A stretch of DNA of 64,000 nt from Microscilla marina ATCC 23134 (GCF_000169175.1 NZ_AAWS01000006.1:7192-71191); one strand, 5' to 3'; positions 3,283 to 53,640 are shown, numbered from the stretch's first letter. Made by a program: numbers and translations. The notes: generated by a model from the letters alone, not told the origin.

Positions 3283-5118
3283 TTATAATTTAGGCTCTAA
3301 CCACAAAAAACCTGCACACAACAAAAACAAGCCAAAGAAATAGAGCAAGGGTATTGGGCGACGTTGGGTAAGTGGTACCATCGCATTTGACTTGGTTTGG
3401 GTAGCTGTTTGTTTTGCCCAACGGTTATTGGCACGTATTTGCTGGATGGTTTGCCAGCTTTGCCAGTCGTCCTTGTCAAAAATGTACAAGGGGGTTTGGG
3501 TTGTATCTCCTTTTACTTGTAATTGGTGCCAGCCTTGGTGTTTTGCCCATAGATTGCCTTGCCACTTTTGATCAAAGTTTACCTGGTTTTGTAAATAAAA
3601 CTCCAGTACATTGCCTGCTTGAGTAAGCGTGCCTACTGGCTGGGGTAAAGCCGTGCTAAGGGTAAGTTTGCAAGCCATATTTACCTTAGGAAAAACCGTG
3701 TTTGCCTCCCATACGTGCACAGGTGTTTGTTTTTTGGCGAGCTTGCTCAACAGGTGTGACCAGTAAGCAGCATAATAATTGGGGTTGCCATCCAGCAATA
3801 GCTGGTAAGACTCAGCAATGAGGCTTATGCCCACTGCCCCCAACCCGGTCACGTTGTACCCTACCAATGCTTGCCCTTGTTGGTTGCGTACCAAGGCAAG
3901 CGTACCTAGTTTTTGCTGTAGCAAGTAGGGGAGCTGCTTCAACTCAAAGTTGCCTTTTACCCCCAGGTCACTGCCATTAATCAAGGTTTTTTCGCGCTCG
4001 ACGCGCCCCAGTGGAAAGTTTGTCAAGGTGGCGGGCACCCTCCCCGATTCGTCCGCCTGAATGAGCACCCCCAAGCCTTCGTTTTTGACTGCCTGACGCA
4101 GTACTGCTATAGTACCCACTCCCAAACCCTGGGCGTATTCAGCGTCTAGTATCAGCAAATCTATTTGCCTGAGCAGGGTAGTGTTTAGTTGAAAACTGGT
4201 GGCGCTTTGGTTAACAAATTCATCTTTGACCTTGTTTTTAGAAATAATCGCACGTACTGCCACCTGGTGCCCTTCAGCAGCCAACCAGTTTTTGAGGTAT
4301 TTGGTCTCAAAACGGGGAAAACTGTTGATAATCACGATGTTTAACTTTTGTTTGGGACGAATGTGTACCGGAACAGATTCGTTGTGTAATGTATCTCCAG
4401 TGGGGGCTTTTACCAACATCCGATAGATAAACTGCCCGGCTTCTTTTGGGGAGTCACGCAAGGCAAAGCTTTCGGTCTGGCGACTGCCAATCAAGGCAGA
4501 GTCTACTGCACCACCAGGGCTTGCCAACACCAATGTCACATTGGTATCGGTAGGGTTATGATAGCTCCCTTTTACCTGCCAAAGGTCTTGGGCAATGGTT
4601 TGGCGAGCGTAACTTACAGTGGTAAAACCCGCAGGAATTGGGTTGAGGTGAAATACAGTGTTGAATGCCTTAAGTGTGGGCAATTCATAAGGTTGCACTC
4701 CATTGCCTACTATGTGAAGCGTACCCAATTGGGGATAGTTTCGTTGAATAAATGCCGCATCTGGGGCTTTGATTGTATGTTTGTCAATGCCTCCCCCTTG
4801 ATAAGCAAACACGAGCACACTATCTTCACGCTCACGCAGGCTGTCAACCGTTGCCAATGTATATTCGTTGGTAAGCAAAATGGCGGATAAAGTCTTTTGG
4901 GCGGTTTGGCAGGCAGGTTGCAGCCCCAACATTGCCAAAGCCACCACCAGGCCTGTGCTTGCCAATAGCCGCCCTGCCAAATATTTTTTATTCGATCGTT
5001 GCCAGGCTTGCCAACTCAACAATGCCCACATCCCTAAAGTCACCCACACTACCACCCAAAAGGTTTGGCTGTTTACCAACCACACAATATGTTCTGGTTT
5101 CATTTCTTCAGGTTTCAT
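3283..5118 (-). CDS. Membrane protein of the MoxR/DUF58/BatA-N cluster, with a possible class-I glutamine-amidotransferase-like (ThuA/DUF4159-like) fold in the C-terminal half.
   Basis: 611-aa ORF. Its start codon overlaps the upstream stop (ATGA at 5115-5118). It has N-terminal TM helices and a C-terminal hydrophobic tail. The segment LILDAEYAQGLGVGTIAVLRQAVKNEGLGVLIQADESG resembles a GATase1-like beta-alpha unit. Confidence 0.5.
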   Translation of the reverse strand: MKPEEMKPEHIVWLVNSQTFWVVVWVTLGMWALLSWQAWQRSNKKYLAGRLLASTGLVVALAMLGLQPACQTAQKTLSAILLTNEYTLATVDSLREREDSVLVFAYQGGGIDKHTIKAPDAAFIQRNYPQLGTLHIVGNGVQPYELPTLKAFNTVFHLNPIPAGFTTVSYARQTIAQDLWQVKGSYHNPTDTNVTLVLASPGGAVDSALIGSRQTESFALRDSPKEAGQFIYRMLVKAPTGDTLHNESVPVHIRPKQKLNIVIINSFPRFETKYLKNWLAAEGHQVAVRAIISKNKVKDEFVNQSATSFQLNTTLLRQIDLLILDAEYAQGLGVGTIAVLRQAVKNEGLGVLIQADESGRVPATLTNFPLGRVEREKTLINGSDLGVKGNFELKQLPYLLQQKLGTLALVRNQQGQALVGYNVTGLGAVGISLIAESYQLLLDGNPNYYAAYWSHLLSKLAKKQTPVHVWEANTVFPKVNMACKLTLSTALPQPVGTLTQAGNVLEFYLQNQVNFDQKWQGNLWAKHQGWHQLQVKGDTTQTPLYIFDKDDWQSWQTIQQIRANNRWAKQTATQTKSNAMVPLTQRRPIPLLYFFGLFLLCAGFLWLEPKL

Positions 5119-7571
5119 TTCCCCAGTTTATTTAAATAAATTTCCAACAAACGATTTTTCATTTTGCGTTGCATGCTGGGTTCGGCAGCATTTTGCGGCA
5201 ACGCGCGCCACAAGGCATTGATAAGGTAGGGCAGTACCCGCTTGATGTCGGCAGGGGCTAGTTGGTCTTGAGTAAGCTTTTGTAAGGTTTTCAAAGCAGT
5301 CAAAAACTGTCCGGGTTTGTCTATAGCCACTGTAGCAAGTTCACTGCCTGCCGCCCTCAACCACTGTTTTTGCCTTGCAGTGGGCAAAGTTATCCGGTGG
5401 TTACGCCATTGCTCCAGCAGGGGCAACACCTTGCGAATATTGGGGTACAAGACCTTGTCTTCGGTGCTGCGTTTTTTATACACATTTTGGATGTCTTCCA
5501 ATTCGCCCTTAAGACGTTTTTCCTTTTCTTTGATGGGTGGGGGTTCAAACCCAATGCGCTCTACATACACCCTTGATTTTTGCTGAATCTGTTTGATGAG
5601 TTTCAAGGCTTTGTATTGGTAAGGTAATGATGCTTTGGGGCGGTTGGTGCGCAAATGTAGCTCCGACTGCCACATATTTACCAAGGCTTCTTTCAATTGT
5701 TTTTTGAGCACTTCATCAAAAAATGTCGCCTCTTCCATCAAGTCGTGCAAGTGCATCACACTGGTAGGCACATAATCGTTGGGGTTGTTAGAGGGTGCCG
5801 CAGACTTGGGGCGGTGGTTATGGTCTTTTTCGTTGCGTTTGAGCACCTCCAGCGACGAAGTGCGTTTTTTCCATTGGCTATGCCCGTGGTCTTTGTGGTC
5901 GTGTCCATCGCCCTCGTAGTGAACCTCTGTAATTATTTTACCAGTTTTTTTGTCTTTGTAACGCACCGTATCTCTTTTACCTTTGTCATTGTGCTTATGA
6001 TGTCCATGGTCATGATGATCGTGGTCGTGATCGTGGTCGTCGTGCCTATCATCTGCGCCAATACTTACCTCATACTCTTCGCCCAAAAACTTTCCATAGC
6101 GCAAGCGCAAAATCTTTTGGTCTACTCCAATACCATTGCTTCTGTATTCAAAAGAATCTTGGGGCATCGTTGCCTTATTACGTAACAATTTTTCGGTGTC
6201 GATGATCAATTGTCGTTGGCTACGAAAATAATCAGGCAGTTTGTTTACCCCATTGCCCATTTCTGCGGTCAATTGCTCGCGGGTGGTGTCCTGAATGCTC
6301 ACAAAATACATTTCAGTACGTCCTTTTTGGGCTTGCGGGCTTTTATTGTCTATTGCCTCCACAAAAAAATAGAGTTCGTCGCCAGGTGCCATGCCTAGTT
6401 GTTGTAGGTTCAGCGTTTTGTGCAGCTGATGGCTTCGCCCACCAGGGACAAAATTGCCAAAACGTAGTTTTTGTTCTCTAAACTTGACCGACTCGCCCTG
6501 TCCCTTGCTTACGGTTGCCACTATGTAGGCATCGGTTATGCCATAATCATCGGTTATTTTGGCGCTAAGGCTGATATTGATGTTGGGTTTAAACTCAAAT
6601 TCTTCATAGTCATTGATCCCCACAAGGGAAAGTTTGGGGCGCGCATCAGGCACGGGAGTCAGGGCAAAAAACTCGCTGCTTTGCCACTCATTTGATGAAC
6701 TCAAAGCAGCTTTTTGGCTGGTTTGTCTAAACACTAGCTGATAAAACCCTTTCTCTTTGAGTCGCCACTGTGCCACATACTCATTGGCTTGCTGTGGGCT
6801 AGGCTGTAGCCGGAGCGAATCGCCTGTATTGAGTACAATGGCAGCTTGGGCGATGTCGCCTTTGAAGCGGACTTTCCAACGAATCACGCTATTCTCTACA
6901 GCTTTTATATTGAGTTCGGGGGCTACCTGGGTGCCTAGCCGGGTATAAGCAGGAGCCTGCACTATAGCCTGTATGCTTTGAATACTGGCGGGTAGCTGTT
7001 GAGGCAATTGGGTGGTATTGTGCAAAGTGTCGTTGGCTACACTGGTGGGGGTGCCTTTGGGCAAATGGGCAACGCCAAAGCTAAGGGTAAATAGCAAGCT
7101 GGCAAGTACGCCACTACCCAACAAAGTAAGGGCGGCTTTGGGCAATTGATGGGGCAATGTGGCTTGGGTGGCTACCTCTATCAGGGCATTGCTCACTTTT
7201 TGCCGTTGCATTTTGGCGAGCAGGTTAAGGTCTTCTTCAGGCAAGAGCAACAACTCGCTGCTGTTTTCTAATACAGGATGGTGTTTGTTTAAATACTGCG
7301 CCACATCATACAAAGTAATTTGGCGCAAGCCCCGCCACCAAAGTAAGCCTACCCACACCAATACAGTAAGTAAAGCTCCTGCCCCAGCCAATGCTCCTGC
7401 CGACCAACGTACTGCCAGGTACACAGCTGCCATTGTCAATGCACTGATGCTCAAAGCCCACAATAGCAGTTCAACGCGCTTGTACTTGCGCCACTTGCTT
7501 TGAAGTTTCTTCAGTATTTGCCGGGTGGTGGCTTCCTGCGATTGGCTTATTTGAGTGGTGTCTGTATTCAT
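5115..7571 (-). CDS. Large membrane/coiled-coil protein (DUF4175-like) with an internal His/Asp-rich tract. The likely start is the internal ATG at 7569-7571 (MNTDTTQ...), which avoids a 118-bp overlap with the upstream gene.
   Basis: The listed ORF is 860 aa (5115..7697). It has TM helices near the N-terminus and low-complexity HDDHDHDHDHHDHGHHKHNDKG. It is conserved with the MoxR/DUF58 genes in Bacteroidetes; this is recalled from memory and not searched. Confidence 0.5.
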   Translation of the reverse strand: MNTDTTQISQSQEATTRQILKKLQSKWRKYKRVELLLWALSISALTMAAVYLAVRWSAGALAGAGALLTVLVWVGLLWWRGLRQITLYDVAQYLNKHHPVLENSSELLLLPEEDLNLLAKMQRQKVSNALIEVATQATLPHQLPKAALTLLGSGVLASLLFTLSFGVAHLPKGTPTSVANDTLHNTTQLPQQLPASIQSIQAIVQAPAYTRLGTQVAPELNIKAVENSVIRWKVRFKGDIAQAAIVLNTGDSLRLQPSPQQANEYVAQWRLKEKGFYQLVFRQTSQKAALSSSNEWQSSEFFALTPVPDARPKLSLVGINDYEEFEFKPNINISLSAKITDDYGITDAYIVATVSKGQGESVKFREQKLRFGNFVPGGRSHQLHKTLNLQQLGMAPGDELYFFVEAIDNKSPQAQKGRTEMYFVSIQDTTREQLTAEMGNGVNKLPDYFRSQRQLIIDTEKLLRNKATMPQDSFEYRSNGIGVDQKILRLRYGKFLGEEYEVSIGADDRHDDHDHDHDHHDHGHHKHNDKGKRDTVRYKDKKTGKIITEVHYEGDGHDHKDHGHSQWKKRTSSLEVLKRNEKDHNHRPKSAAPSNNPNDYVPTSVMHLHDLMEEATFFDEVLKKQLKEALVNMWQSELHLRTNRPKASLPYQYKALKLIKQIQQKSRVYVERIGFEPPPIKEKEKRLKGELEDIQNVYKKRSTEDKVLYPNIRKVLPLLEQWRNHRITLPTARQKQWLRAAGSELATVAIDKPGQFLTALKTLQKLTQDQLAPADIKRVLPYLINALWRALPQNAAEPSMQRKMKNRLLEIYLNKLGK

Positions 7572-11759: not shown

Positions 11760-11856
11760 GGGTTATATGAGCTTCAAGGTGCAAGCTACAAGTAGCAAGC
11801 GTTTTTATATGGTTACAATTTCTTGTTTTTTTGGGTATTGGGTTTGGCGAAAACTG

Positions 11857-12672
11857 CTATTTTCCCAATGCTTTTTTATATTTTTTTTCGTCTTCGAGGA
11901 TAGCTACTATTACTTGGCAAAACACATCAAACTCTCCTTTATCATTTTTTTCACCAAACCCTTTAATAAGCAGTTCAAGTTCCTGAATAGAAAAACCTTC
12001 TGCATCAATATCTATCAGCCTATCTTCAATTGCTTCTCTTCTAAGTTTTTTTAACTTCTCAACATCCAAACCTAATATTTCTATTGTATCTGTCACATTC
12101 TTGTTGTTAGCATCCTTTGCCTTAATTGCTCCACCATAATCGTATACAAAGTAACTTTCACAATTAGTCATCTTAGGATGAATCGCTATTTCTTTATTAC
12201 TTTTTTTTGCATCACAATGTAGTTTTTTCGGAGAGCTAACCACCTGAACAATAACACTATCTCCTTTTTGTAACAAATCTGTATATGGGTTAATTTTCTT
12301 ATGTGGTTTTTCTGCAAAGTTCATTGCATACAAGACTTCCTTATTTGTATGATACTTTTGCATAATAACCTCCCATGTATCATCTGCTTCACATACATGT
12401 GTAATATTTTTTTGATCACCATTACAAGAAGCAAATAGGTTACTATACTCGTACATTTTTTCAGGATATTTATCTTTATCCTTAGGCAACAAATGTTCAA
12501 TTGGGGTGTAATGATTATCAAATATTCTCATGCCACAATAACAACAGATATACCCCTGTTCTTCCAACAAATATTTCTTCAAAAACCCAGGAGGTTGCCA
12601 AGCTGTTGGGTTATTTTTCTTTTTCCAATCTTCAAACTTTTGAGGTGATGCTTGCTTATTGATGTACTTCAT
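11857..12672 (-). CDS. HNH endonuclease, PtuB-like (TIGR02646-type), putative Septu component B.
   Basis: YICCYCGMRIFDNHYTPIEHLLPKDK...SNLFASCNG...HVC gives a CxxC-H-N-H(C) HNH arrangement. Its start overlaps the ATPase stop by 4 bp (ATGA). Codon usage is AT-rich. Confidence 0.6.
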   Translation of the reverse strand: MKYINKQASPQKFEDWKKKNNPTAWQPPGFLKKYLLEEQGYICCYCGMRIFDNHYTPIEHLLPKDKDKYPEKMYEYSNLFASCNGDQKNITHVCEADDTWEVIMQKYHTNKEVLYAMNFAEKPHKKINPYTDLLQKGDSVIVQVVSSPKKLHCDAKKSNKEIAIHPKMTNCESYFVYDYGGAIKAKDANNKNVTDTIEILGLDVEKLKKLRREAIEDRLIDIDAEGFSIQELELLIKGFGEKNDKGEFDVFCQVIVAILEDEKKYKKALGK

Positions 12673-14033
12673 CTACCTAAGACCTCCTTTCGTTTAATGA
12701 CAGCTAACTTTGCATTTAACTCTCGGTCATGAGTAAGGTTAAAATCTTGAAATAATTGTTCAATATAATCTCGTGCCTTGCTTAAATTTTCTTTACCACC
12801 TTCTTCTATTAATTTTTGTACTTTGGTTAATTTAGGTTCAAATTCACGAGGTCGAGCAGATACCCCCATTACTTCTTCTAAAATCCAGTTGACATCTCTG
12901 CCTAGAGTAGAATCGGGCTGTTCACAAGTGATTTGATTGTTTTCGTTGCGAAATAAAAATATATTTCGAGCATCCACATTATTCAATACATGCGGCGAGT
13001 GCGTAGTCACGATAAATTGAATGTTAGGGAAAGTTTGCTGTAGGGCAGGCAATACATTGCGTTGCCAAGCAGGATGCAAGTGTAGTTCTATTTCGTCTAT
13101 CATTACCACACCTTCGCCCTCTAGTTTATTCTCTAAAGCAGGGTTAGCAATGGTGAGGCGGCGGGCAATGTCGCACACGAGCATAATGAGGGTTTTCTCT
13201 CCGTCGGATAGTTGGTTGATATCAAAGTCTTGCCCGTTTTTGTTAATGGCGAGGCTATAATCGCTTGCCTTAAACTCAAAAACAGGTGAGTCATTCACTT
13301 TCACAGATAAATTGGTATACTTGTCTGAACCTAAGGCAGAAAAAAAAACATCTAATGCTTTTCTTACTACTTCGAGGCGAAAGTCTCTATAACTAAAATC
13401 ACTCTTATTTCTTATCTGTCGTACTTCCTCATCCTCAATTTGTTTGAACCATTCTGAAAAGTCTTCGGCATGAGAAATTTTAGAACTAAAAGCATTTTGA
13501 TATGTAGCAAGTTGGGGAAGAATTTTCTTGATTGGATTGTTATCATTTACCTCTCCCTCTTCAATTTCATGTTTTTGATTGGTTCTTCGTAAAAAGTGAT
13601 GTTTTTCTGTTTGATAATACGCAACTATAGGCAAGGAACCATTGGCGTTTACAATGGATGTTTTTTTAAGGTTAAAACTCCCAATGCTTATCTCTTGATT
13701 TGTAAATTTACTTATTCTAATTCCATTAGCTTGTTGCCCTGTCAGCTTGACTTGTAATGCCTCATCACTATTTATTCGAATATCTTGATTTATTAAGTTA
13801 AAGCCTTTCAATAAAAACCGATCAAAAAAGTATTGATCTGATTCATTCCATTTCGCAAGCCTCAAAAACCACAAGGACGCCATCCCCAAAGCATCCAACA
13901 CTGACGACTTACCCGAACCATTGGTACCAATAAATACCGCTAAGTTGTTGTCAGGAAACTGGATTTTGAGGTGTTTAAAACCACGGAAATTATTTAACTC
14001 TAACTCTTTGATTTTCATATCTTCTCTATCCAA
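12669..14033 (-). CDS. AAA_15/AAA_21-type ATPase, PtuA-like, putative Septu component A.
   Basis: Walker A FIGTNGSGKSS, Walker B VVMIDEIELHLHP, and TTHSP near the C-terminus: the OLD/RecF-like ABC ATPase signature. An alternative start at M6 (MKIKELEL) is possible. Confidence 0.65.
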   Translation of the reverse strand: MDREDMKIKELELNNFRGFKHLKIQFPDNNLAVFIGTNGSGKSSVLDALGMASLWFLRLAKWNESDQYFFDRFLLKGFNLINQDIRINSDEALQVKLTGQQANGIRISKFTNQEISIGSFNLKKTSIVNANGSLPIVAYYQTEKHHFLRRTNQKHEIEEGEVNDNNPIKKILPQLATYQNAFSSKISHAEDFSEWFKQIEDEEVRQIRNKSDFSYRDFRLEVVRKALDVFFSALGSDKYTNLSVKVNDSPVFEFKASDYSLAINKNGQDFDINQLSDGEKTLIMLVCDIARRLTIANPALENKLEGEGVVMIDEIELHLHPAWQRNVLPALQQTFPNIQFIVTTHSPHVLNNVDARNIFLFRNENNQITCEQPDSTLGRDVNWILEEVMGVSARPREFEPKLTKVQKLIEEGGKENLSKARDYIEQLFQDFNLTHDRELNAKLAVIKRKEVLGR

Positions 14034-14073
14034 TATTTTTCACTCAAATGTACAGCTTTTTGGGTAAAACAGT

Positions 14074-18453: not shown

Positions 18454-19482
18454 TTATCCGTTGAGCATGGTATTTTGATCGTTGTCAAACCAATCTTTAA
18501 TGGCTTTGATCCCATTGAGTGCCACTTGCAACGGTGGCATTTGTAATAACAATCCTTTTACGTTGAGTTTTTCGAGGTGGGGCAAGTGGGTGATGCTATG
18601 GGGCAAGTGGGTAATTTTAGTGTTTTCCAGGTTGAGTTTTTTCAAACTTTTAAGTCGGCTTATTTCAGGCAATAAAGTAGTAATATTGGTTTGACTAATG
18701 TCGAGATCTTCCAGACAGGACAGTTCAAACAATGCTTTGGGCAACAAACTCACTGGCAGGCTTTTTAGGCTGAGTTTACGCAATTGGGTAAGCTTGCCTA
18801 CGTTTTCGCCCAGTTGACTAATGTTGTTGTGGTTGAGACACAAGGCTTTTAAATTATATAATGTGTATATTTCTACAGGTACCTTGTCTAATCCCATCCC
18901 TGACAAGTCAAGTTCGTGGGTCTCACGTGCTTCAGAAATCCTCAGTCGACAATCAATCAATTTTTGAGACTGGTCGTTCAGGTGGTTTTCATCGGCAAAG
19001 ATATGTTCCAGGTGTTGCAACTGTAATAAGGTAAAAGGCAGGTCGGTAATTTGATTGGCGGTAATATTTAATAGTTCAAGTTGAGTAAGTTGTCCAATAG
19101 CCGCTGGAATACCCAACAGTTGATTGTGTTCAATAGAAAGCGATTTGAGGGCACACAAACAAGTAATTACTTCCGGAAACTTTTGTAATTGATTAGAGGT
19201 AAGGTTTAAACGCTCAAGGTTTTGGAGTTGGGCAAGTTCTTTAGGCAAATCTTTGAGTTGGTTTACCACCAAATTGAGTTCCCGCAAATTACTTAACCGG
19301 GCAATGTGTGCCGGAATAACCGATATACGATTGAAATGTAAACGAAGAATTTCTAACTGCGGCAACTCAAATACTTGAGCAGGAATGGCGTTGAGTGCCA
19401 AGCCTCCCAAATCTAATTCATTTAAATTTTTATCCTTTACTTCTTGTATTCTTTGGTATGCCTTTTTTTCGAGACTGTTCAT
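18454..19482 (-). CDS. Leucine-rich repeat (LRR) protein. The probable start is MNSLEKKAYQRIQ at 19480-19482.
   Basis: It has more than ten LxxLxLxxNxL 22-24-residue repeats. It shares an N-terminal motif with the other LRR paralogs in the window. Confidence 0.7.
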   Translation of the reverse strand: MNSLEKKAYQRIQEVKDKNLNELDLGGLALNAIPAQVFELPQLEILRLHFNRISVIPAHIARLSNLRELNLVVNQLKDLPKELAQLQNLERLNLTSNQLQKFPEVITCLCALKSLSIEHNQLLGIPAAIGQLTQLELLNITANQITDLPFTLLQLQHLEHIFADENHLNDQSQKLIDCRLRISEARETHELDLSGMGLDKVPVEIYTLYNLKALCLNHNNISQLGENVGKLTQLRKLSLKSLPVSLLPKALFELSCLEDLDISQTNITTLLPEISRLKSLKKLNLENTKITHLPHSITHLPHLEKLNVKGLLLQMPPLQVALNGIKAIKDWFDNDQNTMLNG

Positions 19483-19895
19483 CTGGATTTGCCTTTTTAC
19501 TCTTTTCCAATATATAAAATACTGATGAAAAATGCTAACAATAGTCCACAGCATTCAGTCGATAGTCGATGGCTTTTTCGTAAATACTCACATCTAACAA
19601 TATACTGATAACCAATGGTTTAAAAGTTATTCTACCGTATTGATATTTTTTTGGCTGTTTGCTCAAAAGTCCCAAATACAGTTTTTATTGAGTAAATAAC
19701 TCAGAATAATTGAAAGGGTTAACCTCCCCAATATAAAAAACGCTGAACCATTGATACTAAGGAATGTGACCGCCCCGTAAACGGGATTTCGGGCGTAGCC
19801 CTCAACAATAACAGCCCGATTTAGAACAGAGCCACAAGTTTTATAATCGATTATTTTATTCTTGTCGCTTGTGGCTCATGAGTCATAGCTTTAGG

Positions 19896-31158: not shown

Positions 31159-31944
31159 TTATAAAAAAAACTCATCTTCGTCTATTATCTTACACTTCCC
31201 CGAAAGTTGGCGAATAAATTCTACTTCCTTGGGTGACATAGGATTACCTGACACAATCACCTTTTTTAGTTTTTTTAGCTTTAGCTGAAAAGGTAGAAAC
31301 TGTACCTCATTATAAGCTATATCCAACACTTTCAGTTTTTGAAGCGCCCCTGATACACTAAGGTCATCACTATACAACTTATTACTACGCAGGTTTAACT
31401 CTGACAACTCAGTTAACTTAGCCATTTCTTCAGGCAACGATTTTATTTTATTATAACTTAGATCAAGGTTTTGTAGCTGGTCTAAGTTCCCTATCTCTGG
31501 TGGGACTGTTTCTATACTATTATCACTTAAATTAAGTACTTCCAAACTCTTTAACTGCTCTATTTCGGGAGGTATATGCGTAATTTGTCGTTGAATCAAA
31601 AACAAAGACTTCAAACCTGTAAAAGCGAACAACTCTGGTGGAAACGGATTCACCATTATTTTTAATGAATGACCATCGGCAGTAGACAATGGCTTTGTGT
31701 TTTTATTGTTGCCAGGCTTTAAAAAATACAGCTCATTGTCATATATTTCAATCGCGTCTACTTGCTTAATAAACTCCATTTCTACATTATTCTTAATGCA
31801 AGAAATAGGATATTTTCTTAACTCCTTGGTCACTTTTTCATTGTACTCTCCATTTTTCCCCAAACACAATTGAAAAGCAAGTGCTATGTTATGAGCATCT
31901 TTAGTTTTCAAAAGAGATAATATCTTTTTGTTATGATCTTCCAT
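31159..31944 (-). CDS. Leucine-rich repeat protein (paralog family).
   Basis: LRR repeats (LxxLxxLNLSDNSIETVPPEIGNL...). The N-terminal motif KKILSLLKTKDAHNIALAFQLCLG is shared with 54611 and 55877. Confidence 0.7.
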   Translation of the reverse strand: MEDHNKKILSLLKTKDAHNIALAFQLCLGKNGEYNEKVTKELRKYPISCIKNNVEMEFIKQVDAIEIYDNELYFLKPGNNKNTKPLSTADGHSLKIMVNPFPPELFAFTGLKSLFLIQRQITHIPPEIEQLKSLEVLNLSDNSIETVPPEIGNLDQLQNLDLSYNKIKSLPEEMAKLTELSELNLRSNKLYSDDLSVSGALQKLKVLDIAYNEVQFLPFQLKLKKLKKVIVSGNPMSPKEVEFIRQLSGKCKIIDEDEFFL

Positions 31945-39218: not shown

Positions 39219-42200
39219 TCAGGAGTCTTTATTTTTTATAGTGCTATTGATAAACACCCTGTTAGAAATGACATTTTTTTCGCCATAAAAATTGTTAATC
39301 ACAGAACTTCGTAAACCTATTTTATGTACCCAGCCATCTATGCCTGCCACTACTACTCTTTCTCCTACTTTAAAAGGTTTGGTAATAAGTAATGTAAGCC
39401 CTCCTAACAAATCGGCAAGAATATCTTTTAGCGCAAATGCCAAAGCAAAACCACCAATGCCTAAACCAGCAAGAATGGCTCCTGCATTAAAGCCTAATGT
39501 TTCGATAGAAAGTGTGATTGCAAATAGCCAAATCACTACAATAGTTAAAGCCTTTAGGAAGTAAACCATAGGCAAAAAATCTGCTTTTTTCAACCATTCC
39601 AGCTCATCTACTTTTTCTTCTCCCTCTCGTTTTCGTTTTTTAAAGAATCGGGAAAGAAGAACAATTGTCCTTGATTTTTTTTGTGTGAGCAATGCCTCTG
39701 TATACTTGCCCTCTTTGGCTTTTGTAGTGGTTGAGATAACACGAGCTACCATAGATTTGACTATTTTTATTAGGAACCAGGCGATCAAAACGATAAAAGA
39801 CAGTTTGATAATCATGTACAATAAAACTTTGTACCTTAATCGGTTTCTTGTGGATCTCAATGCCCCAATTTTTCCCTTCAAAAAAATCAGCCTAGCCAAA
39901 CTCGTTTGAGGTCTTTCTTCTTTATCCATCTTATCCAGCTCAGATTTGGGGTGACCAATAAGCTCAGCGATGCTCTTTTTAAGTACCACATTTTTGGCTT
40001 CCAATGCGCTAATAATGTCGGCATAAATATCTATTTCTTTCTCTATACCTCCAGGTGTTTGCCTTTCCTTAAAAAGAGTGATCCATTTTTTCGTCGCTGC
40101 AATTTGCACATGGTAATCAAACAATAAATCAGTGCTAATGCTAATGATAGAGTCCTGGCTACTTTGAGCAACTGGAGCTAACAAAGGAATATTTCGTCCT
40201 GTTTTTACCTGAAAAGCATTGATTAATTCATTGGCTTTTTCAGGTACCAGCCTTATTTTAATTTTTATCCATTCTTCTTCATAAGCAAGCTCAAGTTGTT
40301 CTAAATGTTTATTAAGAAATGTAAGTAAGACAGGAATAGAATCTTTTTCTGCGTATTCAAGCTTTGTTAATTTTTCTAATTTGTATATTTGGGTTTGCAG
40401 TATCCTTTGTTGTTGTTCTAACTGAATAAGTTCTACATAATTTGATGTGAGTATTTTAGAGTAGTTTTGAGTTTCAGAAGAGTTAATAAACCCAAGAAAA
40501 AATTCTTCAATGCCATTATCCGAATTCAGACGGTTAACTGCCAATTGTTCACTTACTTCTAAGGCAGTACCTTTCAGGGCTACTTTTTTATTGTCAAATT
40601 CCTGTTGTAATTCCTCTAATTGTTTATGAATGCTTCCTCGTTCACCAGTATTTTTTTGCATCTTGATAAACTGAGCCTGTAATTCGTTTTTCTCTTCTGT
40701 CTGACTCAGCCTCTTTAGCTCCCGCTGAATGCTTAGTTCCACCCCAAACAACTCATGGGTAAGCGATTCGAAATTGCTTATTCGTTCATATTTCAATGCT
40801 TCATTTACTTTAGCAGGTACTTCTTTGCGTTTTATTTTAGCCTGACTATACAGCTTTTTTATTTGTCCTGCATAAAGATTTTGTTGCAATAAAATATCGG
40901 TTATTTTTTCCCGCTTTACAAGTAACTGCCTGAGATACATCTGTAAAGAGTCCAATGATGTTTTCAGAGAATCTTTCAGACTTTTGCGTTTTTGAATAGT
41001 TTCTACATTTTGTGCCAGTAAGTTTTGATACTTTTCTCCTGCAATGTTTTTAAACAAACTTTTGCTTTTTGCCTTTTCTGCTTCGGGCTTCACCAACAAG
41101 CTATCCACTTTTTGTTCTTTTTTAGTAAATATCTGGACTTGTTTTCTTTGAGCTCGTTTGTGTATAAGAGCATATAGTTGAGAACGAATGCCATATTTAT
41201 CCTCCTGTGACTCTCTTTTAATAATTCTGAACAAAGGTCCTTTCAATATGTTCAATTCTCTTTTTATAGTTTTGGCAGTATCTTCTGCTCCTTTATATCT
41301 TTTGTAATAACTTTCTAGTCTCCGTTGTCTCATTGCCAAGCTATCTGTCAGTGTAGTAAAAGTATTGAGTAGCTTTTTTTTGCCAATGTTTTCAAGCTTT
41401 GCTTTCCATTTTTCTACTTTCATTAATGACTTGGCTGTTCTCTCAAGGCTATTTTTTTTGCTGGCAATCTCATCATAGTTCGCCATTAGCTTTTTTATTT
41501 CTTTAGCATTCAGTTCAATTTGTTTTTTTGCATTCTCGCTCAAAATTATTACTTCTGCATTTTGCTTAGTCAGGCTTTCTTCTTCTGCAATAATGGCTTT
41601 ATACCAGTTTGCTGACAGCATTGATTCAGGTTTTACTTCTCCTTTCTCTTCAAGGTTCTTAATGAGTTTTGCAATAAAAATCATCTTTGACAGATGCTCG
41701 CCAATTACTGCAGCTTCAGCAGTAAAAACTTCCTTACTAGCAATAAGCGCCTTCAACTGACTTTGCAATTCATTGGTGTTTTTTATTTGAACAGAGTCAT
41801 ACTTCAGCAAACTATTCAATGCCTGTATTGTCTTTTTTGTATCTTTCGACTCTTCTATACGCTTTGTTTTGGGAGGTTTTTTCAGCTCTATTTTTTTGTA
41901 CCTTACTTCTGCCTCTTTTCCCAAGGCCATTACTTTATTGTAGGCTACCAGGTAAGAACTCTTTATCCAATTTTTTTCTTCAGATAGTTCGGCAAAAGTT
42001 CTCAATAGTTTTTTAGGAGTCATTGCGGCATACTTGTTCTGTAATGCTACATTTTTTTGCTCGTTTGCCTGTTTTTCTTTGGCAGTAAACAGTTGTAACG
42101 CTACCTGTGCTATAGCTTTTTTATTTTCTGCAATATCGCTCCCAAGGCTTATAATCTCTTTTTTTACTACTTTATTGATTCCTTCAAATCGTTTTTCGAT

Positions 42201-42797
42201 TCCAGATAGCTTTTGTTGCTTTGCCTTAATATTTTCTTGCGACAATGATGCGGGCAATTTGGATGCTATTAGTGTACCATCATTTATTCGTAATTTTACC
42301 TCTAATAAATAAGGGGTTAGCAATATAAGATCATTCTTAAACCTATTGCTCGAAAACAGCACCTCATCTACTTGAGTAAGCAGGGTTTCTAAAGCTGTTT
42401 GTTTGCGTTCCAACAACAGTGCTTTTTGCTTGTAAGCATTTAAAAGGCGAGCAATATGTTTGGCTTTAAGCACCGAAATTTCAAGGGGAGTCAATTCTTT
42501 GGCAGGTTTTCGAAAGGTAGAATCAGGCAGGCGAAAATTGCTCAGTTGTCTGTCACTTTCCTGAATAATTTTCTCATCGCTATAAAATTTCCGTAGCTCT
42601 TTTCGATAACTAAACTGAGAAGTACTAAACATTTTATCTGCTTGCCTAAGCAATGCCTCATTACTCAAATTGTGTAAGTTACCAGTGGTTTGTGCCCAGG
42701 TACTATTGTAAACAAACAACAATGCTATACAAAATAGTTGATGAATAAATACTCTTTTTATTATAATTACTTGATAATTTGAAAAAAGTCTTTTCAT
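39219..42797 (-). CDS. Large MscS-family mechanosensitive channel (MscK/KefA-like). It has a roughly 950-aa N-terminal coiled-coil/periplasmic region and is terminated by an in-frame TGA before its conserved C-terminal domain.
   Basis: MscS TM3/beta domain: GAILAGLGIGGFALAFALKDILADLLGGLTLLITKPFKVGERVVVAGIDGWV. N-terminal signal/TM, then a long K/E-rich coiled coil. AT-rich codon usage. Confidence 0.65.
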   Translation of the reverse strand: MKRLFSNYQVIIIKRVFIHQLFCIALLFVYNSTWAQTTGNLHNLSNEALLRQADKMFSTSQFSYRKELRKFYSDEKIIQESDRQLSNFRLPDSTFRKPAKELTPLEISVLKAKHIARLLNAYKQKALLLERKQTALETLLTQVDEVLFSSNRFKNDLILLTPYLLEVKLRINDGTLIASKLPASLSQENIKAKQQKLSGIEKRFEGINKVVKKEIISLGSDIAENKKAIAQVALQLFTAKEKQANEQKNVALQNKYAAMTPKKLLRTFAELSEEKNWIKSSYLVAYNKVMALGKEAEVRYKKIELKKPPKTKRIEESKDTKKTIQALNSLLKYDSVQIKNTNELQSQLKALIASKEVFTAEAAVIGEHLSKMIFIAKLIKNLEEKGEVKPESMLSANWYKAIIAEEESLTKQNAEVIILSENAKKQIELNAKEIKKLMANYDEIASKKNSLERTAKSLMKVEKWKAKLENIGKKKLLNTFTTLTDSLAMRQRRLESYYKRYKGAEDTAKTIKRELNILKGPLFRIIKRESQEDKYGIRSQLYALIHKRAQRKQVQIFTKKEQKVDSLLVKPEAEKAKSKSLFKNIAGEKYQNLLAQNVETIQKRKSLKDSLKTSLDSLQMYLRQLLVKREKITDILLQQNLYAGQIKKLYSQAKIKRKEVPAKVNEALKYERISNFESLTHELFGVELSIQRELKRLSQTEEKNELQAQFIKMQKNTGERGSIHKQLEELQQEFDNKKVALKGTALEVSEQLAVNRLNSDNGIEEFFLGFINSSETQNYSKILTSNYVELIQLEQQQRILQTQIYKLEKLTKLEYAEKDSIPVLLTFLNKHLEQLELAYEEEWIKIKIRLVPEKANELINAFQVKTGRNIPLLAPVAQSSQDSIISISTDLLFDYHVQIAATKKWITLFKERQTPGGIEKEIDIYADIISALEAKNVVLKKSIAELIGHPKSELDKMDKEERPQTSLARLIFLKGKIGALRSTRNRLRYKVLLYMIIKLSFIVLIAWFLIKIVKSMVARVISTTTKAKEGKYTEALLTQKKSRTIVLLSRFFKKRKREGEEKVDELEWLKKADFLPMVYFLKALTIVVIWLFAITLSIETLGFNAGAILAGLGIGGFALAFALKDILADLLGGLTLLITKPFKVGERVVVAGIDGWVHKIGLRSSVINNFYGEKNVISNRVFINSTIKNKDS

Positions 42798-43325: not shown

Positions 43326-44021
43326 TCAGTCCCTCTTGTAATATAAAAAAGCTTCATGCTTGACTATATCACCACTCATCAACCTTCTGTGATTATATAT
43401 TTTACTTTCACAAAGAGACATTTCCTGTTCGAGCCAGCCCAATATGCGGCTTCTCCTGTAGTCATCTTTATCTGTCAACAGGTTAAATACTATGTAAGCG
43501 TTTTCATTTAAAAGGTTTACATAGCTTTTAAGGTCTTCAAGCTCTATATGATTTGCTCCTCCACTAATTGTAATACAATTAAAATCATACTTTGTAAGGT
43601 TTTTATTTTTTATTACATTTTTTACAATAAAAGTATCATCATAAATTTCAGGGTAATCACGATTAAGTGCATCGATGGCTTCTGGCAGGATATCGACTCC
43701 TACCAAAGATTTAATATCCACATTGCTGTTTTCTTTTAATGCTTTGCCCATTAAACCTGAACCACAGGCAAGATCAAGTACATTAAGTTCTTTATGAGTT
43801 TTCGCAGCATACTTTAGCAGCAAACAAGACAATTCTTCATACGCTTTATAATCAAGTAAATCGCAATATAATCTACTATACAATTTTGGGTATGAATAAA
43901 TACTGGCATAATCCCAGGTTTTAAACACTTTTTCTGCGCCATTGGCAAAATCTACTTTAAAGGTTTCGCTTCCTTGGCTTGTGCCTTGTAAGGGAGTAAT
44001 TTTAATAATTGATTCAGTCAT
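43326..44021 (-). CDS. Class I SAM-dependent methyltransferase.
   Basis: VLDLACGSGLMG (motif I) and VDILPEAI (motif II). 231 aa. Confidence 0.6.
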   Translation of the reverse strand: MTESIIKITPLQGTSQGSETFKVDFANGAEKVFKTWDYASIYSYPKLYSRLYCDLLDYKAYEELSCLLLKYAAKTHKELNVLDLACGSGLMGKALKENSNVDIKSLVGVDILPEAIDALNRDYPEIYDDTFIVKNVIKNKNLTKYDFNCITISGGANHIELEDLKSYVNLLNENAYIVFNLLTDKDDYRRSRILGWLEQEMSLCESKIYNHRRLMSGDIVKHEAFLYYKRD

Positions 44022-50792: not shown

Positions 50793-51500
50793 TTAGATAA
50801 GGTCAAATGCCTGAGCAAAGCGAATCAAATCCACAAAGCGCCTAATTTCTAACTTACGCTTCAGGTTTTTGCGGTGTTGCTCGACAGTAGCCTTAGAGAT
50901 AAACAACTGTTCACCTATTTCGGTATTTTGATAACCTAAAGCCAATAAGGGAACTATTTCTAGCTCGCGTGGGGTCAAGCTGGCAAATTTATGATAGTTC
51001 ATTTTCATGTAATTTGTTTCTTCCAATGCCCTTACCATTTTATTGGTAACCTTGCCCACTTTTGCCAAAGGGATAGTAATACCAGCCAAACACGGTTGTT
51101 TATTATAAATACGTGAGGTAGTATACAATGGCTCAAGGCCTTTCACTGGGTCAATTGCCGCCCTTTGTACAAATCCGACGGCTTTACGTTTATGCTTGAG
51201 CAATACGTCTTTGATAAGTATGATCGACTTATTATAATCATCAGGATTCACATAACGCTTAAACAGGTCAGTAGGGGCATTTTGTACATCTTGCAAAGTA
51301 AGCTCAAAGCGCTCTAGGTGTTGCTTACTCAAAAACTTAGGAGCAAAAGTATGGATGTCATTCAAGTGCAGTAAAGCCCCTTGAATCAACTCACAGGCTT
51401 CCTCAAACGAATACCCGTTTTTAGTAATTCTTTGTTCTATCAAAAAGGTTTGACGTTCAAGAGCAACTAGTATTTCTTTTTCAGTAATAATTTGCTTCAT
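50793..51500 (-). CDS. LuxR-type HTH regulator, tandem paralog 5 of 5.
   Basis: C-terminus ASLTPRELEIVPLLALGYQNTEIGEQLFISKATVEQHRKNLKRKLEIRRFVDLIRFAQAFDLI (GerE/LuxR HTH). N-terminus MKQIITEKEILVALERQTFLIEQ. Confidence 0.75.
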   Translation of the reverse strand: MKQIITEKEILVALERQTFLIEQRITKNGYSFEEACELIQGALLHLNDIHTFAPKFLSKQHLERFELTLQDVQNAPTDLFKRYVNPDDYNKSIILIKDVLLKHKRKAVGFVQRAAIDPVKGLEPLYTTSRIYNKQPCLAGITIPLAKVGKVTNKMVRALEETNYMKMNYHKFASLTPRELEIVPLLALGYQNTEIGEQLFISKATVEQHRKNLKRKLEIRRFVDLIRFAQAFDLI

Positions 51501-51504
51501 TTTT

Positions 51505-52212: not shown

Positions 52213-52213
52213 G

Positions 52214-52921: not shown

Positions 52922-52922
52922 G

Positions 52923-53639: not shown

Positions 53640-53640
53640 T

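What the first reader, a model, noticed from the sequence alone, without database searches (positions are those of the whole stretch)
11760..14073. Low-GC two-gene cassette with Septu (PtuA/PtuB) anti-phage architecture, inserted between the MoxR cluster and the DUF4159/TldD genes
The cassette has a 454-aa ATPase with GTNGSGKS ... MIDEIELHLHP ... TTHSP (AAA_15/AAA_21, OLD/RecF-like). Four base pairs into its stop, a 271-aa protein begins that carries a CxxC-H-N-H HNH nuclease motif set. This is the gene order and domain pair of the Septu defence system (ATPase PtuA, then HNH PtuB). Both genes are visibly more AT-rich than the flanking housekeeping genes. The pair splits a conserved MoxR-to-TldD neighbourhood, which is consistent with horizontal acquisition.
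Basis: partly seen in the sequence, partly recalled or inferred. Interest (0 to 1): 0.7.

Follow-up and report, generated by a model that had tools for sequence, protein, structure and literature searches.

The report
Septu defence pair with LysM insert
This is a two-gene Septu-type anti-phage system (ATPase PtuA plus HNH nuclease PtuB) carried as a small accessory cassette between two housekeeping genes of Microscilla marina; it is an ordinary member of a known family, except that its nuclease carries a LysM-fold insertion not found in the literature searched here and its ATPase has a hypervariable segment.

Summary
ptuA (12669-14018, minus strand, 449 aa) and ptuB (11857-12672, 271 aa) overlap by 4 bp. 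They match PADLOC PtuA (3e-116, full length) and PtuB (6e-49). PtuB passes TIGR02646, and its model matches only solved PtuB chains at E<=0.01. No RT, ncRNA or tRNA is present, and PtuA lacks the retron-type extensions, so this is standalone Septu.

The cassette is accessory. In 60 co-directional Bacteroidota loci the DUF4159-MoxR gap has a median of 22 bp, against 2,314 bp here. A close relative (L091) has an empty site: 2,196 low-GC bp are replaced by 14 nt, with no terminal repeats. The cassette is not recent, though. Five Microscilla-clade genomes carry it at the same junction. Their flanking genes are 85-99% identical, but PtuB is only 61-79% identical and PtuA residues 61-180 only 17-39%.

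The parts
14045..14052 (-). Promoter-like element TACATTTG, which fits the Bacteroidota -7 consensus TAnnTTTG, about 27 nt upstream of the ptuA ATG
   Evidence: Read from the sequence. GTACATTTGAGT is conserved upstream of ptuA in L082 and L083 and lies inside the 2.2-kb segment that is absent from L091. The consensus is from my own knowledge of Bacteroides promoters. Function is not tested, and the sigma-70 scan was at chance level.
12669..14018 (-). ptuA: ABC-type (Rad50/OLD-like) ATPase, 449 aa from the ATG at 14018 (454 aa if the upstream TTG at 14033 is used); stop codon at 12669-12671
   Evidence: PADLOC PtuA PDLC00271, 3.3e-116, residues 6-452 on model positions 1-417 of 421. Pfam AAA_15 and AAA_21. 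PDB relatives are retron Ec83/Ec78 PtuA and E. coli Septu PtuA 8ee4. Public record WP_002694670.1, 449 aa.
13905..13928 (-). PtuA Walker A, GTNGSGKS (aa 36-43 in 454-aa numbering)
13494..13853 (-). PtuA hypervariable segment (aa 61-180), within the N-terminal half of the ATPase domain; candidate trigger-sensing surface (inference)
   Evidence: Pairwise identity is 17-39% among five Microscilla-clade alleles whose ATPase cores are 83-100% identical. Nucleotide identity to L082 falls to 0.18-0.48 here, against 0.83-0.98 in the core.
12996..13211 (-). PtuA conserved catalytic core: ABC signature LSDGEK (13194-13211), Walker B VVMIDE (13092-13109), LHLH, TTHS (12996-13007)
12672..12863 (-). PtuA C-terminal segment (aa 391-454), the expected PtuB-clamping helices
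   Evidence: It co-varies with PtuB across alleles: L082 against L090 gives 92% here and 79% for PtuB, while the other pairs give 61-73% and 61-68%. The role is inferred from the Eco7 and Ec78 structures (PMC12673091, PMC12819146).
12669..12672 (-). ATGA overlap of the ptuA stop and the ptuB start (translational coupling)
   Evidence: The same arrangement is seen in L082, L083, L088, L089 and L090; in L086 and L087 the overlap is 17 bp.
11857..12672 (-). ptuB: HNH (beta-beta-alpha-metal) nuclease, 271 aa, TIGR02646 family
   Evidence: PADLOC PtuB PDLC00332, 6.2e-49. TIGR02646 at 68.4 bits, above the 52.15 cut-off. AlphaFold model with pLDDT 93.2. The 12 Foldseek PDB matches with E<=0.01 are all PtuB chains.
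12418..12558 (-). PtuB HNH N-terminal half: C43-x2-C46 zinc ligands, catalytic H60 (IEH), N78, C83
   Evidence: Q39, C43, Y45, C46, H60 and C83 are invariant, and N78 is invariant or nearly so, across alignments of 53 and 63 homologues.
12229..12417 (-). LysM-fold insertion (aa 86-148) between strand 2 and the helix of the HNH finger
12202..12219 (-). PtuB HCDAKK: last His of H-N-H (H152), fourth zinc ligand (C153) and K157
   Evidence: C153 is invariant; H152 and K157 are nearly invariant.
11860..12060 (-). PtuB helical C-terminal domain (about aa 205-271), the expected PtuA-binding domain
   Evidence: Helices 205-219, 229-239 and 252-269 in the model. The role is inferred by homology to the Eco7 PtuB CTD (PMC12673091). 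This is the most variable part of PtuB (33-37% identity in block 211-240).
14057..14066 (.). Upstream copy of a perfect 10-nt direct repeat (TTTTTGGGTA on the + strand) in the DUF4159-ptuA spacer
   Evidence: An equally long match occurred in 21 of 5000 shuffles and in 23 of 1663 window-sampled pairs. It is not conserved at the L083 edges, so it is only a weak candidate for a junction scar.
11828..11837 (.). Downstream copy of the 10-nt direct repeat, in the ptuB-MoxR spacer

Best explanation
The interval holds a standalone Septu anti-phage system of Microscilla marina ATCC 23134: a self-promoted, translationally coupled ptuA-ptuB operon of about 2.2 kb.

Shown here: PtuA is an ABC-type ATPase with intact Walker A, signature, Walker B and H-loop motifs. 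PtuB is an HNH nuclease with an intact Cys4 zinc site and H-N-H triad. The pair is an accessory cassette at an otherwise tight DUF4159-MoxR junction.

Inferred by homology to the E. coli Septu and retron PtuAB structures: ATP-bound PtuA dimers oligomerise, and their C-terminal helices clamp the helical C-terminal domain of PtuB, which holds the nuclease inactive. Phage infection releases nuclease activity, either through a fall in ATP or through a phage protein recognised by PtuA. The substrate is DNA (nicking or degradation) or tRNA-Tyr, depending on the homologue. The infected cell stops growing before phage progeny are made (abortive infection).

Two local peculiarities are shown. A LysM-fold module is inserted into the HNH finger of PtuB. 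PtuA residues 61-180 are hypervariable between alleles that share nearly identical ATPase cores. I infer that the hypervariable region is the surface exposed to phage triggers or inhibitors, and that the LysM module regulates access to the HNH active site or its activation.
For: Family assignment:
- PADLOC PtuA at 3.3e-116, full length; PADLOC PtuB at 6.2e-49. Both beat the retron I-A models (387 against 297 bits; 165 against 91 bits).
- Pfam AAA_15 and AAA_21. TIGR02646 above its cut-off.
- PDB sequence relatives are PtuA and PtuB of Septu 8ee4/8ee7 and of retrons Ec83 and Ec78.
- The PtuB model (pLDDT 93.2, pTM 0.85) has PtuB chains as its top 12 Foldseek matches, with 8eea_G at 1.3e-7.
- Catalytic and zinc residues are invariant in alignments of 53 and 63 homologues.
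- The genes overlap by 4 bp.

Standalone status:
- No Rfam family and no tRNA in 64 kb. No YxDD motif in any ORF of 200 aa or more. The spacers are 55 and 97 nt and fold no better than shuffles.
- PtuA is colinear with 8ee4, and lacks the roughly 55-aa N-terminal extension and the roughly 30-aa flap implied by the offsets to Ec83 PtuA (domain map in PMC12673091 and PMC12819146).

Accessory nature:
- Median junction of 22 bp in 60 loci, with no PtuA or PtuB hit in any of the 80 loci.
- Empty site in L091 against L083, at 92-96% nucleotide identity in the flanks and with a 2,196-bp segment of GC 0.354 missing.

Arms-race signature: flanking genes 85-99% identical, against PtuB 61-79% and PtuA residues 61-180 17-39%.

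Mechanism literature:
- Septu EcB88 needs the Walker A/B and HNH residues, cleaves the tRNA-Tyr variable loop on infection and behaves as abortive infection (PMC13096335).
- In standalone PtuAB, DNA nicking is inhibited by ATP, the complex forms an inflammasome-like hexamer, and it is sensitised by the phage tail fibre (PMC12819146, PMC12673091).
Against: - Nothing here is experimental. No phage of M. marina was tested, and neither expression nor activity is shown.
- Pfam HNH and LysM are both below detection in this protein.
- The NCBIfam PtuA and PtuB equivalogs, which are built on retron Ec78, are below their cut-offs (284 of 500 bits; 81 of 150 bits).
- A 60-aa domain inserted between the N and the last H of the HNH motif could in principle alter or block catalysis.
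- Substrate and trigger differ among characterised homologues (DNA or tRNA-Tyr; ATP level, tail fibre or msDNA), so they cannot be assigned here.
- The pair is isolated, with no other defence genes found nearby.
Confidence: 0.86

Rival explanations
1. It is an orphaned effector module of a type I-A retron (Ec78/Ec83-like) that lost, or is separated from, its reverse transcriptase and ncRNA. It would then depend on msDNA control, or would be unregulated.
For: The best NCBIfam names are the retron Ec78 PtuA and PtuB models. The best PDB sequence hits for PtuA are the retron Ec83 and Ec78 ATPases, at 1.6e-49 against 3.2e-37 for Septu 8ee4. The PADLOC retron I-A models also hit (297 and 91 bits).
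Against: - Both NCBIfam scores are far below the equivalog cut-offs, and the PADLOC Septu models score higher.
- There is no RT-like ORF, no Rfam hit and no room for an ncRNA.
- PtuA lacks the N-terminal extension and the coiled-coil flap that retron PtuA uses to bind RT and msDNA (PMC12819146, PMC12673091).
- None of the nine loci that carry this PtuB lineage shows an RT next to the pair.
Confidence: 0.03
2. It is a non-defence ATPase-nuclease pair, for example a DNA-repair or housekeeping module or a selfish addiction (toxin-antitoxin-like) cassette that persists without any anti-phage role.
For: AAA_21 is annotated in Pfam as a putative AbiEii/type IV TA domain, and SMC_N, RecF and Rad50 models hit the N-terminus. 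The pair has been kept at one chromosomal site across a clade. No neighbouring defence genes were found.
Against: - It is absent from all 80 other Bacteroidota loci and from a close relative, so it is not housekeeping.
- Divergence and mosaicism are extreme relative to the flanks, which is typical of genes in conflict with parasites.
- Full-length matches are to experimentally validated defence proteins (PMC13096335).
Confidence: 0.06
3. It belongs to another ABC-ATPase-plus-nuclease defence family (PARIS AriA/AriB, Gabija, OLD, or an AbiEii-like system) and not to Septu.
For: The ABC ATPase head is shared. AriA matches at 1.9e-6 and the retron Eco8 OLD-like effector at 2.1e-11.
Against: - The partner is an HNH protein of the TIGR02646 family with a PtuB fold, not Toprim or DUF4435.
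- PtuA models beat the alternatives by more than 100 orders of magnitude in E-value.
- No Toprim domain is fused to the ATPase.
Confidence: 0.02
4. The cassette is an inactive relic. The LysM insertion disrupts the HNH finger, and the locus survives only by chance.
For: The insertion lies between the N and the last H of H-N-H. The window protein fails the Pfam HNH and LysM models.
Against: - Both ORFs are intact in five diverged alleles, with all catalytic and zinc residues invariant.
- The same insertion is kept in at least 61 further 50%-identity representatives, and the two whose genomic context was checked (P0022, P0024) are each paired with a PtuA.
- The model packs the HNH core confidently around the insert (pLDDT 93).
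Confidence: 0.03

Closest known systems
E. coli standalone Septu PtuAB (PDB 8EE4, 8EE7, 8EEA; Li et al. 2024, as cited in PMC12673091 and PMC12819146)
   Same: It is a two-gene ptuA-ptuB operon. The ATPase is of similar length (449 against 465 aa) and is colinear. It has no N-terminal extension or coiled-coil flap. The partner is an HNH PtuB with a helical C-terminal domain. 8eea_G is the best structural match to the PtuB model.
   Different: Sequence identity is low (about 18% for PtuB in the structural alignment). PtuB here is about 46 aa longer between the conserved halves because of the LysM-fold insertion. Oligomeric state, ATP inhibition and DNA substrate are untested here.
Septu EcB88 of E. 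coli JBBDAGI-19-0041 (PMC13096335)
   Same: It is a standalone PtuA and PtuB pair. The Walker A/B and H-N-H residues needed for its defence have counterparts here (K42, D313/E314, H60, N78).
   Different: EcB88 cleaves the tRNA-Tyr variable loop on T-even phage infection. Whether the M. marina system targets tRNA or DNA is unknown. That paper reports no LysM insertion.
Type I-A retron effectors PtuAB (Retron-Eco7/Ec78 and Eco4/Ec83; PDB 9e8z, 9kjx, 9vh1, 9nnh; PMC12819146, PMC12673091)
   Same: These are the closest sequence relatives of the PtuA C-terminal half in the PDB (1.6e-49). They share the PtuB fold and the PtuA-CTD/PtuB-CTD clamp architecture.
   Different: There is no RT, ncRNA or msDNA here. 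PtuA lacks the NTD (Eco7 residues 1-63) and the coiled-coil (255-310). The NCBIfam equivalog cut-offs are not met.
LysM domain (Pfam PF01476; for example SleL 4s3j, CEBiP 5jcd, Ecp6 4b9h, Volvox chitinase 5k2l, E. coli Kbp 7pvc)
   Different: It is cytoplasmic and is embedded inside an HNH nuclease, whereas classic LysM domains are N- or C-terminal modules of secreted proteins. The alpha2-beta2 loop is about 15-20 residues longer. The conserved Gly of GDT/GET is Asp in the window protein. Glycan binding is untested.
PARIS (AriA/AriB), Gabija (GajA/GajB) and OLD-family nucleases
   Same: They share the ABC ATPase head of the same superfamily and regulation of the nuclease by nucleotide or trigger.
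   Different: Their nuclease is Toprim or DUF4435, either fused or separate, not an HNH. Sequence matches are marginal (AriA 1.9e-6).

Membership tests
Septu (PtuA/PtuB) | PtuA: an ABC-type ATPase that matches PtuA family profiles over its full length | tested here: met
   PADLOC PDLC00271, 3.3e-116, residues 6-452 on model positions 1-417 of 421. 24 of the top 25 PADLOC hits are PtuA models and the other is the retron I-A ATPase model. Pfam AAA_15 and AAA_21.
Septu (PtuA/PtuB) | Intact nucleotide-binding motifs in PtuA (Walker A, signature, Walker B, H-loop) | tested here: met
   GTNGSGKS 36-43, LSDGEK 275-280, VVMIDE 309-314, TTHS 343-346. Residues 271-390 are 83-100% conserved among alleles.
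Septu (PtuA/PtuB) | PtuB: an HNH nuclease of the TIGR02646 family with catalytic H-N-H and a zinc site | tested here: met
   TIGR02646 at 68.4 bits against a cut-off of 52.15. PADLOC PtuB at 6.2e-49. C43, C46, H60, C83 and C153 are invariant; N78 and H152 are invariant or nearly so. The fold matches solved PtuB chains. The Pfam HNH model itself does not reach threshold.
Septu (PtuA/PtuB) | ptuA immediately followed by ptuB on the same strand as one operon | tested here: met
   A 4-bp ATGA overlap. The same order is seen in the other loci carrying this PtuB lineage.
Septu (PtuA/PtuB) | Standalone: no associated reverse transcriptase or ncRNA | tested here: met
   No Rfam hit. No YxDD-containing ORF of 200 aa or more in 64 kb. 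The flanks are DUF4159 and MoxR. The spacers are unstructured. The rest of the genome was not searched.
Septu (PtuA/PtuB) | PtuA C-terminal helices bind the PtuB C-terminal domain; higher-order PtuA oligomer (6:2 in E. coli) | not testable with these tools
   Only indirect support: the PtuA C-terminus and PtuB co-vary across alleles, and the PtuB model has a helical C-terminal domain. No multimer prediction was available.
Septu (PtuA/PtuB) | Confers resistance to phage infection | not testable with these tools
   This needs phage-challenge assays.
Type I-A retron effector PtuAB (NCBIfam NF041760 / NF041761 equivalogs) | Score above the equivalog cut-off; PtuA with the N-terminal extension and coiled-coil flap; adjacent RT and msr/msd | tested here: not met
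   284 bits against a cut-off of 500, and 81.2 against 150. Alignment offsets show that the roughly 55-aa NTE and the roughly 30-aa flap are missing. No RT or ncRNA.
LysM domain (PF01476) | Sequence match to the Pfam LysM model above its gathering score | tested here: not met
   The window protein and its isolated insert give no LysM hit even at E<=10. Homologues do match: P0022 at 27.5 bits (cut-off 20.9), and 25 of 63 long forms at E<=0.01, the best at 3.2e-11. The window insert matches a profile of the homologous inserts at 35.2 bits.
LysM domain (PF01476) | Beta-alpha-alpha-beta fold superimposable on solved LysM domains | tested here: met
LysM domain (PF01476) | Binds GlcNAc-containing glycans (peptidoglycan, chitin) | not testable with these tools
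   This needs binding assays. The location is cytoplasmic and the alpha2-beta2 loop is expanded, so the ligand may differ.
PARIS / OLD / Gabija | Toprim or DUF4435 nuclease partner or fusion | tested here: not met
   No Toprim or DUF4435 hit in either protein. The partner has a PtuB HNH fold.

The most novel reading that the evidence does not exclude
LysM-PtuB defines an uncharacterised Septu subtype in which a cytoplasmic LysM-fold module, wedged between the catalytic strands and the helix of the HNH finger, acts as the sensor or gate of the nuclease. It could bind a GlcNAc/MurNAc-containing metabolite whose level changes when a phage breaches or remodels the cell wall (peptidoglycan precursors or turnover products). 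Alternatively it could bind a phage protein; LysM folds also occur in phage baseplates. Either way, envelope damage would be coupled directly to nuclease activation. The hypervariable PtuA lobe would provide a second, rapidly evolving recognition surface.
Probability: 0.12. Interest if true: 0.7.

Novelty: new variant of a known kind. Interest (0 to 1): 0.38.

Why it matters
As a Septu locus this is routine. PADLOC-type tools would call it, although public records name the proteins only as "AAA family ATPase" and "HNH endonuclease family protein". Three things add value.

1. The triggers of standalone Septu are still debated (ATP depletion, tail fibre) and so are its substrates (DNA or tRNA-Tyr). 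A widespread PtuB subfamily with a ligand-binding-type fold inserted at the active-site finger offers a concrete, testable handle on how the nuclease is gated.

2. The Microscilla alleles form a natural experiment. The chromosomal site is the same and the ATPase cores are nearly identical, but PtuA residues 61-180 are essentially unrelated between alleles, and the PtuA C-terminus co-varies with PtuB. That maps the likely specificity surface and the likely interaction surface without any structure.

3. The L083/L091 pair gives a base-pair-resolved empty site. It shows that a 2.2-kb defence cassette can be gained or lost with no mobility genes and no terminal repeats.

Tried and rejected
- **Retron association.** Rejected. 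There is no Rfam family, tRNA, RT motif or structured spacer.
- **Target-site duplication.** A perfect 10-nt direct repeat brackets the cassette (21 of 5000 shuffles do as well). However, its upstream copy lies in the conserved promoter-like region, and the L083 edges have no repeat longer than 6 nt. I do not accept it as a duplication.
- **Sigma-70 promoter and terminator scan.** At chance level, and uninformative for Bacteroidota.
- **Recent horizontal transfer into this strain.** Rejected. Five clade members carry the cassette at the same junction.
- **Defence island.** Rejected. The neighbours are housekeeping genes, and the only other PADLOC hit among the seven window proteins scanned is a weak methyltransferase match.
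- **Search for relatives of the hypervariable PtuA segment.** It returned nothing, not even the protein itself. It is uninformative on whether the segment was imported or diverged in place.
- **Genome-collection scan.** It shows the general state of the junction, not clade history. That history came from exact-protein look-ups and one DNA probe.
- **Literature.** The LysM + PtuB search gave only irrelevant papers, and the LysM + Septu search matched "septum". Li et al. 2024 (PMC12318543) is not held, so its findings are cited second-hand.
Full report
**1. The observation**

The minus strand between the MoxR start (11759) and the DUF4159 stop (14074) holds two ORFs. One is a 454-aa ORF, 12669..14033, starting at a TTG. 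The other is a 271-aa ORF, 11857..12672. They overlap by the 4-bp ATGA. PADLOC alignments begin at residue 6. A gene call on an independent contig and the public record both start at the ATG at 14018, giving 449 aa (WP_002694670.1). I therefore take 12669-14018 as ptuA.

All quoted motifs are present:
- GTNGSGKS (36-43)
- LSDGEK (275-280)
- VVMIDE-LHLH (309-320)
- TTHS (343-346)
- In the second protein: C43xxC46, H60, N78, C83, H152/C153

The genes are AT-rich relative to their neighbours:

| Gene | GC | GC3 |
|---|---|---|
| ptuB | 0.324 | 0.265 |
| ptuA | 0.369 | 0.332 |
| MoxR | 0.494 | 0.530 |
| DUF4159 | 0.442 | 0.545 |

Across the window's other long ORFs (mean 0.419, sd 0.043), only ptuB is a clear outlier (z -2.2). 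The organism is Microscilla marina ATCC 23134.

**2. What it is**

PADLOC gives PtuA at 3.3e-116 over the full length, and PtuB at 6.2e-49. Both beat the retron I-A effector models. Pfam finds AAA_15, AAA_21 and SMC_N in PtuA and nothing in PtuB. PtuB passes NCBIfam TIGR02646 (68.4 bits, cut-off 52.15). The retron-Ec78 PtuA and PtuB equivalogs are far below their cut-offs.

Among solved structures, PtuA matches retron Ec83/Ec78 PtuA (1.6e-49) and E. coli Septu PtuA 8ee4 (3.2e-37). AriA of PARIS reaches only 1.9e-6. PtuB matches PtuB chains. An AlphaFold model of PtuB (53-sequence alignment, pLDDT 93.2, pTM 0.85) has PtuB chains of Septu 8eea and of retrons Ec83/Ec78 as its top 12 Foldseek matches.

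The system is standalone:
- No Rfam family and no tRNA in 64 kb.
- No YxDD motif in any ORF of 200 aa or more.
- The two spacers are 55 and 97 nt and fold no better than shuffles.
- PtuA is colinear with 8ee4. Relative to Ec83 PtuA it lacks about 55 N-terminal residues and about 30 residues before the signature motif. Those are the NTD and the coiled-coil flap that retron PtuA uses to hold RT and msDNA (PMC12673091, PMC12819146).

**3. Genomic status**

In 80 Bacteroidota loci recovered through DUF4159, 60 have DUF4159 and MoxR co-directional. The median gap is 22 bp (53 are under 150 bp, maximum 676 bp), and none has a PtuA or PtuB hit. The gap here is 2,314 bp.

However, the four nearest PtuB relatives (P0002-P0005, 60-64% identical) all lie at the same junction in other Microscilla-like genomes or contigs: L082 (GCA_947493425.1), L083-L085, L089 and L090. 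In L083 a DUF2891 gene lies upstream of ptuA. In L089 it lies downstream of ptuB.

Those loci were found through PtuB, which biases them towards occupied sites. I therefore probed metagenome contigs with a clade-specific DUF4159 DNA pattern. The single hit, L091, carries DUF4159-DUF2891-MoxR with no ptuAB. L091 and L083 are 92-96% identical in their flanks. L083 positions 3360-5555 (2,196 bp, GC 0.354 against 0.445 and 0.462) are replaced by 14 nt in L091, and the edge repeats are no longer than 6 nt. The missing segment holds the conserved GTACATTTGAGT element upstream of ptuA, which fits the Bacteroidota -7 box TAnnTTTG (my knowledge), plus both genes. It ends within about 14 nt of the ptuB stop.

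The cassette is thus a self-contained accessory module that is gained or lost without transposition hallmarks. A 10-nt perfect repeat brackets the window copy but is not convincing as a target-site duplication.

**4. Diversification**

Pairwise amino-acid identity among the five alleles:

| Segment | Identity |
|---|---|
| DUF4159 (flank) | 90-99% |
| MoxR (flank) | 85-97% |
| PtuA 6-60 | 66-84% |
| PtuA 61-180 | 17-39% |
| PtuA 181-270 | 42-70% |
| PtuA 271-390 (signature, Walker B, H-loop) | 83-100% |
| PtuA 391-454 | 61-92% |
| PtuB | 61-79% |

The pattern is mosaic, not uniform. The window allele and L090 have identical cores but are only 25% identical in residues 61-180. L082 and L090 share the PtuA C-terminus (92%) and PtuB (79%) but not residues 61-180 (24%). 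Nucleotide identity between the window and L082 swings between 0.18 and 0.98 along the genes.

Published structures place the PtuB-binding helices at the PtuA C-terminus (PMC12673091, PMC12819146), which fits the co-variation. I infer that residues 61-180, inside the first half of the ATPase domain, form a specificity surface under conflict-driven turnover or segmental recombination. A search for outside donors of that segment returned nothing.

**5. The LysM-fold insertion**

PADLOC PtuB models match in two pieces (1-97 and 145-261). Alignments place about 60 extra residues between SC83NG and H152CDAKK, which is between strand 2 and the helix of the beta-beta-alpha-metal finger. Solved PtuBs are 46-52 residues shorter there.

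Evidence for the fold:
- The full model folds the insert as beta(88-93)-alpha(100-106)-alpha(111-119)-beta(139-144).

Evidence from sequence:
- Pfam LysM is not detected in the window protein.
- It passes the gathering score in the distant homologue P0022 and is detected in 25 of 63 long-form PtuBs, the best at 3.2e-11.
- The window insert scores 35.2 bits against a profile built only from the 61 non-Microscilla inserts, against a shuffle maximum of 7.3. The consensus of that profile is the LysM consensus with a longer alpha2-beta2 loop.

Distribution:
- An exhaustive profile search found 5,296 PtuB-family representatives. At least 61 50%-identity representatives outside the Microscilla clade have an insert of 50-87 residues.
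- Two distant examples, P0022 and P0024, sit directly after a PtuA gene.

I found no paper describing this. That holds only within the library searched.

**6. How it most likely works**

Shown here: an intact ABC ATPase and an intact HNH nuclease, encoded as a coupled operon on an accessory cassette.

Inferred from homologues:
- ATP-bound PtuA dimers oligomerise and clamp PtuB through their C-terminal helices.
- Nuclease activity is held off until infection, then released.
- In E. coli Septu, DNA nicking is inhibited by ATP and the system is sensitised by the tail fibre (PMC12819146, PMC12673091).
- In Septu EcB88 the outcome is cleavage of the tRNA-Tyr variable loop with abortive-infection behaviour, and it depends on the Walker and HNH residues (PMC13096335).

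Which substrate and which trigger apply in M. marina cannot be told from sequence. The role of the LysM module (gate, ligand sensor or protein-contact surface) is speculation.

**7. Verdict**

It is accessory and polymorphic, but old at this locus. It is a new variant of a known kind because of the LysM-PtuB architecture. The allelic mosaic and the base-pair-resolved empty site are useful extras. Interest is moderate to low (0.38).

Noticed in passing
window 50793-54354 (minus strand): Five head-to-tail paralogous genes of 235-238 aa. The one I scanned (50793-51500) has a C-terminal LuxR/GerE helix-turn-helix (PF00196, 5e-17). Their GC is low for the window (0.35-0.39).
   Followed up: partly
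window 18454-19554, 31159-31944, 54611-55324: Three leucine-rich-repeat proteins (LRR_8, LRR_4) are scattered through the window. One of them (31159-31944) is among the most AT-rich genes (GC 0.340).
   Followed up: partly
window 39219-42797 and 43326-44021: A 1,192-aa low-GC (0.350) protein has only a C-terminal MscS-type channel domain. Next to it is a low-GC (0.335) SAM-methyltransferase with a weak PADLOC mad2 hit (1.3e-7). No defence system could be called here.
   Followed up: partly
L083 2228-3340; L089 3002-4114; L091 2549-3676: A DUF2891 gene (its N-terminus looks like a signal peptide, host-like GC 0.468) is a second variable cargo at the same DUF4159-MoxR junction. It lies upstream of ptuA in L083 and downstream of ptuB, with a 4-bp overlap, in L089. 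It is alone in L091 and absent from the window, L082 and L090. The different orders imply more than one rearrangement or insertion at this site.
   Followed up: partly
L064 2717-3295; L074 9172-9624: In two unrelated Bacteroidota genomes the same junction holds other small cargo: a 192-aa ORF with a sub-threshold Uma2 (putative restriction endonuclease) match, and a 150-aa GNAT acetyltransferase. The junction seems to tolerate insertions in general.
   Followed up: partly
window 11828-11837 and 14057-14066: A perfect 10-nt direct repeat (TTTTTGGGTA) sits in the two spacers that bracket the cassette. It is rarer than chance (21 of 5000 shuffles; 23 of 1663 window-sampled pairs), but it is not mirrored at the L083/L091 insertion edges. 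Its meaning is unclear.
   Followed up: yes
L001, L060, L066 (genome contigs records): Contigs labelled as Alphaproteobacteria, Stenotrophomonas and Janthinobacterium MAGs carry DUF4159 and the MoxR/TldD neighbours at 55-79% identity to M. marina. L001 and L060 show the full co-directional cluster, and in L066 MoxR is divergent from DUF4159. The bins are probably mislabelled or contaminated.
   Followed up: no
window 13434-13871 (PtuA aa 55-200): The word-indexed protein search with this segment returned no hit at all, not even the M. marina protein itself, although the exact full-length protein is in the collection. The segment evidently has no close relatives, and the tool appears to have a blind spot for it.
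   Followed up: no
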